Assembly: GCF_057098645.1 (NCBI RefSeq)
Contig: NZ_CM169472.1
Reading direction: 5' to 3' (one strand)
Length of the DNA: 64,000 bases
Shown here: positions 18,001 through 21,000 of the stretch, piece by piece
Layout of the letters: each line of letters starts with the position of its first letter
How positions within the stretch are numbered: the stretch's first letter is position 1
Position numbers: made by a program

Positions 18001-21000
18001 GGATATAAAAGGAATTATGCCAGTACTGACAAGAGGCGATTCACATATGATCGTGATGCCAACCACCTATAGCGATTTCAGTGTTTGTATTAGACACTGA
18101 ACAAGGGGCATTTTGGCCTTATGATGGCACGAAAGTGATCTACGATGGCGGTTGCATTCCGGAAGAGCGTATCTGGAGTATTTCACCGGATCAAAAATGT
18201 CATGGCATTGTGCTGGTGGCGGAAAATAAACAGCGAGCTAACCAGCTAATGGAAGAGTCTGCGCCTTACCGAATTTGAGATTACTCCGCTACTCCGGTCA
18301 TTCACACTCAACTAACGTTAAGCCAGTCCATCGCAGAGACTGGCTTATGAAACCTTACTCCACGCTTTTTCTTTTCAGCCTGCTCACGCTGACCACCGTA
18401 CCGGCCCAGGCCGATATTATCGACGACACCATTGGCAATATTCAGCAGGCGATTAACGATGCTTATAACCCTGACCGTGGGCGAGATTATGAAGATTCGC
18501 GCGACGACGGCTGGCAGCGTGAAGTGAGCGACGATCGGCGCAGACAATATGACGACCGCCGTCGCCAGTTTGAAGATCGTCGCAGGCAACTGGACGATCG
18601 CCAGCACCAGCTTGATCAGGAGCGTCGGCAGCTAGAAGATGAAGAGCGGAGAATGGAAGATGAGTATGGGCAATGATGTTGGGTATGGAGCAGGCATCGC
18701 CCCTCTGGGGAGAGGGTTAGGGTGAGGGGGCCAGCACGCACATTCCCTCTCATCACGCCACCCCAATCTCCATCCCATCAAACCCCGCCTCAAACCCCGA
18801 CGGCAGTGTGTTTTCCATCAGCCATGCATCAAACTGATGGCTGATGTGCGTCAGAATCACGCGCGGCGAGCGGATAACCTGATTCAGCGCAAGCACGGTA
18901 TTTAAATCACAGTGATTACGCGGTGCATCCTCGCACGGCGGGTGGCTGCAATCAATCACCATTACCTGCGGCTGATTATTGCGTAAAAATTTCAGCGTTT
19001 TTTCCGGCAAGCCAGCGGTGTCAGACAGCCACGCCACCCGGCTGTGCGCCGTTTCCAGCAGATAACCGAAGGTCAGTTTTGAGTGGTTGAGCGGCAGGGG
19101 CGTGACCTGTAACCCCTGCAAATCAAACACCACAAACGGTTCCACCGTGTGGCTGAAATCAAGCAGGTCCGGATGTTTAAACAGATCGTCGCAGCCCTGT
19201 TCATCCGGCGGGCCGTAGACCGGGATCGGATCGCCCACGCCCCAGCGCAGCGGAAACAGCCCCTGGACGTGATCCATATGGTAGTGCGTCAGCAAAAACT
19301 GCTGGAACGATCCTGGCGACCAGCGAGCGGTGAGATCGTGCAGCCCGGCGTCGATCAGGGTGATCGCCTCGTTAAACTTCACTACGCCGCTGCACGGTTG
19401 GCGGCGATAGTGCGGTGAGCGCCGCGCTCTGGCGCAGGCCGCACACTCGCAGCCCCATGCCGGAACGCCCTGTGCGCCGCCGGTGCCGGTGAGCGTGAGG
19501 GTCAGGCTCATGTTACAGCGCCTTCGTGAAGCGGAAGTGGCTCTGCTCGTAGCCTTCGCGCAGATAGAAACGGTGTGCGTCGTGGCGCTTCACGTTGGTC
19601 GAAAGCTCGGTCATTTCGGCCCCGGCCTGGCGGGCTTCTTCTTCTGCCCACGCCAGTAACTTACTGCCGACGTTCAGACCGCGCGCCTGCGGCATCACCA
19701 CCAGTTCCTGAATTTCGCCGATCCAGTTGACATGATGCAGATGAAACTGCAAATGCAGGCCGATCATGCCGACAACTTCGCCATCCAGCAGCGCCAAATG
19801 GTAGCGCATGTTCGGGTCGCGTAGGTTAGCGTTAAAGCCCACGCGAAACGCGTGATGGTCAAACTCCGCCTGTTTTAGCTCACAAATCAGCGCGTAAACC
19901 GCGTCGGTGTCGTACTGCGTGGCCGGGCGAAGCTCACAAGCAGGCATGGTGTTTCTCCTTCTGATGAATCAGCGTCAGCAGCGTGTCGACCGACTGGCGC
20001 AGGCTACCGTCATTATTGAGCGTATGGCAATCCTGTGGAGTATAGCGGGCAGCGCGCGCCAGCCGGGCGTTAATTTCACTGGCGTTTTCGCGTCCACGGT
20101 TTTCCAGGCGCTGGCGCAGGATCTCTGGCGACACCTGTAAGCAGATGGGCAGCAGCGCCGATGCATAGCGCGCCCGCGCCTGCGGCAGATGGGCGCGTGA
20201 GCCGTTGACCAGCACGTCGAATCCGGCGTGCAGCCAGAGGTCAATCTCGACGCCGACGCCATAATACAGACCGTTGGCGTGCCAGCTTAAGGCCAGCAGA
20301 TTTTGCCCCGCGCGGGTAAAAAACTCCTGCTCGCTCAGGGCGATATGGTTTTCGCTTCCAGCGCTGGCATCGCGCGTGATGTAGCGATGCGCCACCAGTA
20401 GCTGCGCCTGTTCCCGCAGGCGGAGTTCCGCCAGCAGGCTGTCTTTCCCGGAGCCGGACGGCCCCATTAACCAAATCAGTTTTCCCGTCATCAGAACACC
20501 CTTTTACCCTGACGCCAGACGTGGTCGATATGAATGTGATTGCCCTTGCGATGCGCCAGCACCAGGTCCGCGCGATTGCCCTCGCCAATCACCCCGCGAT
20601 CCTGGAGATTAAGCGCTTGCGCCGGATTTTTAGTCACCAGCCTCACCGCCTGCGGCAGCGTAAAGCGGTTGCTCTGGTCATCGGCCACGCGGAACGCCGC
20701 ATCCAGCAGGCTGGCGGGGTAGTAGTCGGAAGAGAGGATATCCAGCAGGCCAAGCTGCGCCAGTTCACTGGCCGCCACGTTGCCGGAGTGCGAACCGCCG
20801 CGCACGATATTCGGCGCGCCCATCAGCACGTTCATGCCATGCTTGCGCGAGGCTTGTGCCGCTTCGAACGTGGTGGGAAATTCGGCGATCACGCTGCCAA
20901 GCTGGTGGGATTCGGCAACGTGGGCGTGCGTGGCGTCATCGTGGCTGGCGAGGGCAATTTGTCTTGCGCGGCACAGGGCGGCGATAGTTTCGCGATTCGG

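What the first reader, a model, noticed from the sequence alone, without database searches (positions are those of the whole stretch)
18690..18745. G/C-tract palindromic element between yjdP and phnP
The sequence CGCCCCTCTGGGGAGAGGGTTAGGGTGAGGGGGCC has a striking homopolymeric G/C-run composition and an internal CCCTCT/AGAGGG inverted repeat. It looks like a dispersed intergenic repeat (I suspect the boxC family) rather than a simple terminator, and sits between two convergent genes.
Basis: partly seen in the sequence, partly recalled or inferred. Interest (0 to 1): 0.3.

Follow-up and report, generated by a model that had tools for sequence, protein, structure and literature searches.

The report
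Truncated BoxC repeat between yjdP and phnP
This G/C-rich stretch is a shortened copy of BoxC, a small repeat already known to be scattered through E. coli genomes; it is most likely leftover passenger DNA rather than a gene signal, so the finding is correct but ordinary.

Summary
The window is E. coli, O157:H7/O145:H28 type. The 76-nt spacer between convergent yjdP (+) and phnP (-) holds GGGAGAGGGTTAGGGTGAGGG at 18708-18728. This is the exact core of type-A BoxC, also published as PIT, TMECO and HPG1. The K-12 orthologue is listed as TMECO #22 (Holder 2015) and HPGQ #51 (Kaplan 2016). The 56-mer finds a median of 17 places per genome in 5,425 E. coli genomes.

The new detail is that this copy is truncated. 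Compared with K-12, 70 bp are missing between two 9-bp direct repeats, TCGCCCCTC. The loss removes a degenerate inverted partner, the spacer and the first bases of the pyrimidine block. The copy therefore fails the strict TMECO pattern and folds no better than shuffled sequence. Pseudocitrobacter has an intact inverted pair at the same site, so the long form is probably ancestral. In 5,426 genomes:
- the long form occurs in 3,087;
- a BoxC-free spacer occurs in 1,011;
- this exact junction occurs in 352.

No terminator, promoter or Rfam signal is present. The best reading is decaying, structure-prone passenger DNA. Already known; low interest.

The parts
18697..18741 (+). Surviving part of a type-A BoxC (PIT/TMECO/HPG1) unit: the last 6 nt of pyrimidine block 1, loop 1, purine block 2, the TTA loop, purine block 3 and the right flank ending in GCAC.
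   Evidence: Colinear with K-12 TMECO #22 from the deletion junction onward, one mismatch inside the part. Matches 33 of 41 highly conserved family columns; all misses are at the deleted 5' end.
18694..18702 (+). Damaged pyrimidine block 1. It reads GCATCGCCC where the consensus is CCCTCNCCC (7 of 9 match). Its first bases now come from the unique left flank.
   Evidence: Sequence. The strict TMECO pattern gives 0 matches in the window. K-12 has CCCTCGCCC at this position.
18697..18705 (+). TCGCCCCTC, the single remaining copy of the 9-bp direct repeat at the junction of the 70-bp deletion relative to K-12.
   Evidence: Pairwise alignment. K-12 carries this 9-mer twice, 70 bp apart. The two BLAST segments against K-12 overlap at exactly 18697-18705.
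18708..18728 (+). Purine blocks 2 and 3, GGGAGAGGG-TTA-GGGTGAGGG. This is the exact HPG1 / TMECO type-A core.
   Evidence: single match, 0 expected. It is identical to the 21-mer shared by 13 K-12 copies (PMC5100583).
18707..18730 (+). Potential G-quadruplex motif GGGGAGAGGGTTAGGGTGAGGGGG: four G-tracts separated by 3-nt loops. It is the only such motif on either strand of the 64-kb window.
   Evidence: Regular-expression scan.
18701..18716 (+). Short hairpin CCCTCT-GGGG-AGAGGG (6 bp).
   Evidence: I11. It appears in the minimum-energy fold, but the fold is no better than shuffles.
18347..18676 (+). yjdP coding sequence (DDRRRQL-repeat protein). It converges on the element.
   Evidence: ORF list. 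RefSeq annotation of the identical O157:H7 TR01 sequence.
18753..19511 (-). phnP coding sequence, the last gene of the phn operon. It converges on the element from the other side.

Best explanation
The feature is a 5'-truncated copy of the type-A BoxC dispersed repeat of Enterobacteriaceae. The same family has been published under the names PIT element, TMECO and HPG1 G-quadruplex motif.

The ancestral yjdP-phnP spacer held two BoxC copies in inverted orientation. In the O157:H7/O55:H7/O145:H28 lineage, 70 bp were lost between two 9-bp direct repeats (TCGCCCCTC). Those repeats were supplied by the pyrimidine blocks of the two copies. The most likely route is slipped-strand mispairing during replication; this step is inferred. 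What remains is one copy without the outer part of its first block.

The remnant most likely has no signal function for yjdP or phnP. It is passenger DNA tolerated at a 3'-3' gene junction. Its only likely 'activity' is physical: when single-stranded, its G/C blocks can fold back as a hairpin, a purine-motif triplex or a G-quadruplex. That makes the locus prone to small deletions.

Shown here: identity, copy number, the deletion and its repeats, allele frequencies, and the loss of predicted folding. Inferred: the slippage mechanism and the lack of function.
For: Identity
- The core 18708-18728 equals the HPG1 / type-A TMECO 21-mer.
- The K-12 orthologue at 4,314,285-4,314,320 is TMECO #22 and HPGQ #51.
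- TMECO is equated with BoxC and PIT in PMC4666352.
- BoxC is listed as a known E. coli family of 56 bp and 32 copies in PMC2267715.

Dispersal
- Median of 17 places per genome; 87,136 places on chromosomes against 349 on plasmids.
- Almost absent from phages: 3 of 50,697 records.

Deletion
- 70-bp gap relative to K-12, flanked by TCGCCCCTC.
- Pseudocitrobacter carries an intact inverted pair (type A on the minus strand, type B on the plus strand) in the same spacer, with homologous flanks. The other E. coli alleles align as nested deletions of the long form.

Allele counts in 5,426 genomes
- Long form: 3,087.
- BoxC-free 27-nt spacer: 1,011.
- This exact junction: 352, always one per genome.

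Loss of structure
- The window copy folds at z = 0.03 (DNA) and +0.5 (RNA). The K-12 copy folds at z = -2.3 (DNA) and the K-12 spacer at -2.6 (RNA).

No signal function
- No terminator-like or promoter-like site in the spacer and no credible Rfam match.
- About 19% of E. coli genomes lack the element at this site altogether.
- The literature reports no promoter or terminator activity for PIT elements, no triplex footprint in vivo, and raised local variability (PMC4666352).
Against: - Function was not tested here. Kaplan et al. (PMC5100583) argue from conservation for a regulatory G4-hairpin-duplex switch, and note that 6 of 16 HPG1 copies lie between convergent genes.
- The polarity argument rests on one outgroup genus. 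Its PhnP is unusually close to the E. coli protein (93-95% identity), so horizontal transfer of the region is possible.
- No Escherichia outgroup species could be retrieved.
- Whether the BoxC-free B2 allele is an empty site or a complete deletion is unresolved.
- Not every BoxC locus is unstable. The zntA-tusA copy is colinear in 5,097 of 5,426 genomes.
Confidence: 0.85

Rival explanations
1. The element is a transcription terminator or 3'-end stabilising hairpin that serves the convergent yjdP and phn transcripts.
For: It lies in a 3'-3' junction, 21 nt after the yjdP stop and 11 nt before the phnP stop. A 6-bp hairpin exists. In my sample of 10 K-12 type-A copies, 6 lie between convergent genes.
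Against: - Neither strand has a U-tract after the stem.
- The terminator scan finds nothing in the spacer.
- The RNA fold of the spacer is no better than shuffles on either strand (z = +0.5 and +0.4).
- PIT elements showed no terminator activity in the study cited in PMC4666352.
- 1,011 genomes have a 27-nt spacer with no BoxC.
Confidence: 0.06
2. The element is a functional non-B-DNA switch (G-quadruplex, hairpin or triplex). It would regulate transcription or replication locally, or would be kept by selection as a generator of variation.
For: - The canonical G4 motif at 18707-18730 is the only one in the 64-kb window.
- In vitro G4, hairpin and triplex formation is reported for the family (PMC5100583, PMC4666352).
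- The core is extremely conserved among copies.
Against: - There was no in vivo triplex footprint, and the duplex form dominated when the complementary strand was present.
- No functional link to neighbouring genes has been found.
- This copy has lost part of block 1 and its predicted fold.
- The site is empty or otherwise deleted in a large share of strains.
- One G4 motif per 64 kb is expected from composition alone.
Confidence: 0.07
3. The polarity is reversed. The 76-nt form in the window is ancestral, and the K-12 long form arose by insertion of 70 bp with a 9-bp target duplication.
For: A 9-bp direct repeat flanking an extra segment is also what a transposition-type insertion would leave.
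Against: - The extra 70 bp is not a unit of the family. It consists of half of one degenerate copy, a spacer and the first bases of the other copy.
- Its 'spacer' is in fact the conserved left arm of the type-A unit.
- Pseudocitrobacter has the paired arrangement at the same site.
- Several other nested deletion alleles exist.
- The short junction is confined to 352 genomes, mostly one lineage.
Confidence: 0.04

Closest known systems
BoxC / PIT element / TMECO (Bergler 1992; Bachellier 1999; Hoyne 2000; Holder 2015, PMC4666352)
   Same: - The purine blocks and TTA loop of type A are identical.
- The position is orthologous to TMECO #22 of K-12.
- The element is intergenic, chromosomal and multi-copy.
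- The locus shows the small intergenic deletions that Holder et al. describe as typical ('TMECO mutated').
   Different: - Block 1 reads GCATCGCCC instead of CCCTCNCCC, so the strict pattern fails.
- The conserved left arm of the unit (…GCACAATCGGTCCCC) and the inverted partner are gone.
- Predicted self-folding is lost.
HPG1 conserved G-quadruplex motif (Kaplan 2016, PMC5100583)
   Same: The 21-mer dGGGAGAGGGTTAGGGTGAGGG matches exactly. The K-12 yjdP/phnP site is their HPGQ #51.
   Different: The upstream C-rich partner that their proposed hairpin/G4 switch needs is truncated here. If anything, this shifts the balance away from the hairpin.
REP/BIME and REPIN doublets
   Same: Both are short, GC-rich, intergenic, structure-forming repeats. 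Both are often found at gene 3' ends and often as inverted doublets.
   Different: The sequences are unrelated. The REP consensus hits 22326, 27698 and 30203 in this window but not this spacer. No RAYT-type transposase is known for BoxC.
Rho-independent terminator
   Same: A GC-rich stem-loop just downstream of stop codons.
   Different: It has no U-tract and only a 6-bp stem, gets no hit in the terminator scan, and the family showed no terminator activity.

Membership tests
BoxC repeat family (defined by homology) | Sequence similarity to the family core and flanks | tested here: met
   The 21-nt core is exact. 33 of 41 columns that are at least 80% conserved among 13 K-12 type-A copies match; K-12 members score 37-41. 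About 45 nt of the roughly 60-nt unit are retained.
BoxC repeat family (defined by homology) | Positional orthology to a published member | tested here: met
   The window aligns colinearly with NC_000913.3 4,314,285-4,314,320, which is TMECO #22 and HPGQ #51.
BoxC repeat family (defined by homology) | Multi-copy, dispersed, intergenic and chromosomal | tested here: met
   Median 17 places per genome, range 1-33, with 99.6% on chromosomes. This copy and the sampled K-12 copies lie between coding sequences.
BoxC repeat family (defined by homology) | Complete unit (original 56-bp consensus) | tested here: not met
   The left arm and the first bases of block 1 are deleted. The original 56-bp consensus (Bergler 1992; Bachellier 1999) was not available in the library searched, so I compared against a consensus built from K-12 copies.
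TMECO / PIT intrastrand-triplex motif (defined by pattern) | Match to CCCTCNCCC-N3-6-GGGNGAGGG-N3-GGGNGAGGG | tested here: not met
   0 matches in the window. Block 1 has 2 mismatches; blocks 2 and 3 are exact. This is a degenerate ('mutated') TMECO, not a strict one.
TMECO / PIT intrastrand-triplex motif (defined by pattern) | Forms an intrastrand purine-motif triplex | not testable with these tools
   The folding tools model only Watson-Crick pairing. The supporting hairpin is weakened (z = 0.03 against -2.29 for K-12).
Canonical G-quadruplex motif | Four G-tracts of at least 3 nt with loops of 1-7 nt | tested here: met
   18707-18730 on the + strand. Actual formation in vivo cannot be tested here.
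Rho-independent terminator | GC-rich stem followed by a T/U tract | tested here: not met
   No site in 18677-18752 on either strand. The stem is followed by TTAGGGTG on the + strand and GCGATGCC on the - strand.
REP/BIME | REP consensus GCCKGATGCGRCGY…RCGYCTTATCMGGCCTAC | tested here: not met
   Three REP matches elsewhere in the window and none in this spacer.
MITE / REPIN-like doublet | Two inverted arms, with or without a target-site duplication | tested here: not met
   Only one arm survives in the window. K-12 and Pseudocitrobacter have two arms at this site. No target-site duplication or empty site could be defined.
Any Rfam RNA family | Covariance-model hit | tested here: not met
   Only chance-level hits, with E between 1.5 and 9.7 and far below gathering scores.

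The most novel reading that the evidence does not exclude
BoxC may be a non-autonomous mobile doublet, like a REPIN or MITE. Its natural unit would be an inverted A+B pair, and the 'single' copies, including this one, would be decay products made by palindrome-stimulated deletion.

On this reading the yjdP-phnP spacer is a recurrent landing or retention site across genera. It is occupied in Escherichia, Pseudocitrobacter, Enterobacter, Leclercia and Lelliottia, in different orientations and copy numbers, but is empty in Citrobacter, Klebsiella and Kluyvera.

The evidence does not exclude this. It also does not show mobility: no target-site duplication, no clean empty site and no associated transposase were found.
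Probability: 0.12. Interest if true: 0.5.

Novelty: already known. Interest (0 to 1): 0.12.

Why it matters
It matters little beyond correct annotation.

- The stretch should be labelled as a degenerate BoxC/TMECO repeat. It should not be called a terminator or an sRNA, and none of the spurious small ORFs that cross it should be annotated as a gene.
- The locus is a clean natural example of the small deletions reported around these repeats. There are at least six spacer alleles in E. coli, and one has a precisely defined 9-bp-repeat junction that marks the O157:H7/O55:H7/O145:H28 lineage.
- That junction could serve as a typing marker, or as a substrate for measuring structure-stimulated slippage.

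Tried and rejected
- **Rfam scan of 18000-19500.** Only chance hits.
- **Promoter and terminator scan.** Nothing in the spacer.
- **First junction probe, 18680-18716.** It found only 50 genomes, apparently because most O157:H7 strains (99.3% identical over 18630-18780) carry a SNP at or near 18689, which leaves no exact 28-nt word. I replaced it with 18690-18721, which found 352 genomes.
- **Genome-contig scan with PhnP, to get Escherichia outgroups.** It returned 80 loci but no Escherichia. Pseudocitrobacter had to serve as the outgroup, so the B2 'empty' allele could not be polarised.
- **Searches for the original 56-bp BoxC consensus.** No open text holds it. I used the published TMECO and HPGQ tables and a consensus built here instead.
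- **Search for an empty site at another BoxC locus (zntA-tusA), to look for target-site duplications.** That locus is almost invariant and no empty allele appeared in the sample.
- **Mobile-element carriage.** Phages are essentially negative. Plasmid hits cover 0.7% of records, and many of those are megabase-sized records filed as plasmids.
- **G4 motif as a statistical anomaly.** Rejected, because one motif per 64 kb is within the shuffle expectation.

Full report
**1. What is in the sequence**

The quoted string lies at 18698-18732. It sits in the 76-nt spacer between two convergent genes:
- a + strand ORF ending at 18676;
- a - strand ORF whose stop codon starts at 18753.

Megablast of 18660-18770 gives 100% matches to E. 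coli O157:H7 TR01 and O145:H28 chromosomes. In those records the two genes are annotated yjdP and phnP. So the window is E. coli and the gene names are right.

The CCCTCT/AGAGGG inverted repeat is real: 18701-18706 and 18711-18716. It is only 6 bp long, and the 56-mer folds no better than shuffled sequence (z = 0.03 as DNA). What is beyond chance is the purine core. GGGAGAGGGTTAGGGTGAGGGG occurs once in the window and never in 100 shuffles, even at 3 mismatches.

**2. It is a dispersed repeat**

Blastn of the 56-mer against 5,426 complete E. coli genomes finds 87,485 places in 5,425 genomes.
- The median is 17 places per genome, with a range of 1-33.
- 99.6% of places are on chromosomes.
- The closest genomes carry 10 places (O145) and 12-14 places (O157:H7).

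That criterion is not met.

**3. Which repeat**

Full-text search led to Holder et al. 2015 (PMC4666352). They study a motif 'earlier described as BoxC' and rediscovered as PIT by Hoyne et al. 2000. They rename it TMECO and give the consensus CCCTCNCCC-N3-6-GGGNGAGGG-N3-GGGNGAGGG.

Their Table 1 lists 23 copies in K-12. Number 22 is CCCTCGCCCCTCTGGGGAGAGGGTTAGGGTGAGGGG at 4,314,285-4,314,320, + strand, type 'A mm'. I fetched NC_000913.3 4,310,000-4,322,000. That interval is the yjdP-phnP spacer and it carries that exact sequence.

Kaplan et al. 2016 (PMC5100583) found the same family independently as conserved G-quadruplex motifs. HPG1 is dGGGAGAGGGTTAGGGTGAGGG, and their HPGQ #51 lies between yjdP and phnP at 4,314,309. 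PMC2267715 lists BoxC as a known E. coli family of 56 bp and 32 copies.

**4. This copy is truncated**

Alignment with K-12 shows 70 bp missing from the window.

- K-12 reads …GGCA-TCGCCCCTC-ACCCCAATGGGGAGAGGGAGAAAACGAGCGCAATATTCAATATCGAGCACAATCGGTCCCC-TCGCCCCTC-TGGGGAGAGGGTTAGGG…
- The window reads …GGCA-TCGCCCCTC-TGGGGAGAGGGTTAGGG…

The gap is bounded by two copies of the 9-mer TCGCCCCTC, of which one remains at 18697-18705. BLAST segments against K-12 overlap on exactly those 9 bases.

The consequences are as follows.
- Block 1 now reads GCATCGCCC, which matches 7 of 9 consensus positions.
- The strict TMECO pattern has no match in the window.
- Against a consensus of 13 K-12 type-A copies, the window matches 33 of 41 highly conserved columns. 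K-12 members match 37-41, and every miss is at the 5' end.
- Predicted folding is lost. The K-12 copy folds at -11.4 kcal/mol (z = -2.3) and the K-12 spacer RNA at z = -2.6 and -2.2. The window versions give z = 0.03, -1.3 and about +0.5.

**5. What was deleted, and in which direction**

The K-12-only segment starts with CCCCTCACCCCAATGGGGAGAGGG. This is a minus-orientation BoxC that has lost its middle block. The segment continues with GCGCAATATTCAATATCGAGCACAATCGGT. That stretch is the conserved left arm of the type-A unit, because the same arm flanks other K-12 and Pseudocitrobacter copies. K-12 therefore carries an inverted pair.

A scan of species-representative genomes with PhnP returned no Escherichia. 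It did return Pseudocitrobacter loci in which the same yjdP-phnP spacer holds an intact inverted pair: type A on the minus strand and type B on the plus strand. The flanks on both sides are homologous to the E. coli flanks.

Other E. coli alleles align as nested deletions of the long form:

| Strain | Spacer length |
|---|---|
| E-1246 | 95 nt |
| Z1323CEC0001 | 42 nt |
| M160133 | 34 nt |
| UTI89 and AR_0081 | 27 nt, no BoxC |

The parsimonious reading is that the long pair is ancestral and the window allele is a deletion. I infer slipped-strand mispairing between the 9-bp repeats, helped by the fold-back potential of the pair. In K-12 the G-rich strand is the + strand, clockwise of oriC, which makes it the lagging-strand template. 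That last point rests on my own knowledge of the K-12 map and not on a test run here.

**6. Allele frequencies in 5,426 genomes**

| Allele | Genomes |
|---|---|
| K-12-specific 62-mer (long form) | 3,087, single copy |
| B2-type BoxC-free spacer (UTI89, CFT073, ST131, ATCC 25922, ATCC 11775) | 1,011 |
| 32-mer across the window's junction (O157:H7, O55:H7, O145:H28 and a few others) | 352, one per genome |
| Other forms, not enumerated | about 976 (remainder) |

An evenly spaced sample of 60 rows agrees with these figures: 5 rows were window-type, 33 long, about 7 M160133-like and 11 B2-like. Megablast needs an exact 28-nt word, so the counts are lower bounds.

By contrast, the single BoxC at zntA-tusA is colinear in 5,097 genomes. 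Instability is therefore locus-specific and may depend on the paired arrangement.

**7. Function**

- The spacer has no terminator-like or promoter-like site, and the stem is not followed by a T-tract on either strand.
- There is no credible Rfam hit.
- REP elements occur elsewhere in the window but not here.
- 18707-18730 is a canonical G4 motif and the only one in the window. One per 64 kb is within composition expectation.
- Published work reports stable triplex or G4 structures only for isolated single strands. It found no in vivo triplex footprint, no promoter or terminator activity and no link to neighbouring gene function, but it did find raised local variability.
- About a fifth of E. 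coli genomes lack the element at this site.

On this evidence I take the remnant to be non-functional passenger DNA at a permissive 3'-3' junction. Its only likely effect is to promote local deletions.

**8. Comparison with what is known, and novelty**

The kind of element is known under four names, and the orthologous K-12 copy appears in two published tables. The general observation of small deletions at such loci is also published.

Two things are specific here: the exact 70-bp junction at a 9-bp repeat, and its restriction to 352 genomes. The copy is a member of BoxC by descent. It is not a strict TMECO by pattern.

The element is already known and of low interest.

The most novel reading left open is that BoxC pairs are REPIN/MITE-like mobile doublets with a preference for this spacer across genera. 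I give that about 12%.

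Noticed in passing
window ~9,600-18,340: Upstream of yjdP the window carries a carbohydrate kinase, an aldolase, a D-lyxose/D-mannose isomerase, a sugar ABC transporter and a hybrid sensor kinase. K-12 has alsRBA-rpiB at this position. Homology to K-12 starts only at 18341, 6 nt before the yjdP start codon. The 412-nt gap between the kinase stop (17934) and yjdP was not examined.
   Followed up: partly
L072 (Leclercia) ~3760-3960; L078 (Lelliottia) ~3760-3970: In these genera the same yjdP-phnP spacer holds three tandem copies of a unit of about 79 nt. Each unit contains a minus-orientation BoxC. In Leclercia each unit also has a terminator-like hairpin, AAAAGGCAACGCAGTTGCCTTTT on the locus + strand.
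   Followed up: no
L002, L004, L038 (Pseudocitrobacter): Pseudocitrobacter PhnP is 93-95% identical to the E. coli protein, against about 80-84% for Citrobacter and Kluyvera. The spacer flanks are also alignable. This suggests either a close relationship or horizontal transfer of the phn-yjdP region. No Escherichia locus appeared among the 80 returned.
   Followed up: no
MG065686.1 and MG065691.1 (Campylobacter phages A18a and A11a): Two 174-kb Campylobacter phage records each contain three places that match E. coli BoxC, with the best at 100% over 42 nt. This looks like contamination or a chimeric assembly.
   Followed up: no
L098, L099 (K-12 282,101 and 289,246): Two K-12 type-B BoxC copies (TMECO #3 and #4) lie inside the region RefSeq annotates as cryptic prophage CP4-6. 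This qualifies the published statement that the motif is not associated with phage DNA.
   Followed up: no
window 18616-18844, both strands: Three ORFs of 40-53 aa run through the element: 18616-18756 (-), 18632-18793 (-) and 18722-18844 (+). Their peptides, such as LTLTLSPEGR and NPLPRG, are typical of translated BoxC. These are likely sources of spurious 'hypothetical protein' calls.
   Followed up: no
L083 (E. coli Z1323CEC0001): The strain with the 42-nt spacer allele, in which only block 3 of BoxC is left, also has yjdP annotated as a pseudogene with an internal stop.
   Followed up: no
K-12 type-A copies (L001, L087-L095, L097, L101, L102): Conservation among type-A copies extends about 25-30 nt to the left of the 36-nt TMECO core, as …AA(A/T)A…G-GC-CG-ACGGTCCCC. 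It also reaches a GCAC about 12 nt to the right. The real repeat unit is therefore longer than the published triplex or G4 motifs.
   Followed up: partly
window 22326-22361, 27698-27733, 30203-30238: Three good REP (BIME) matches, each with 2 mismatches to the consensus, lie elsewhere in the window. One is between phnL and phnK.
   Followed up: no
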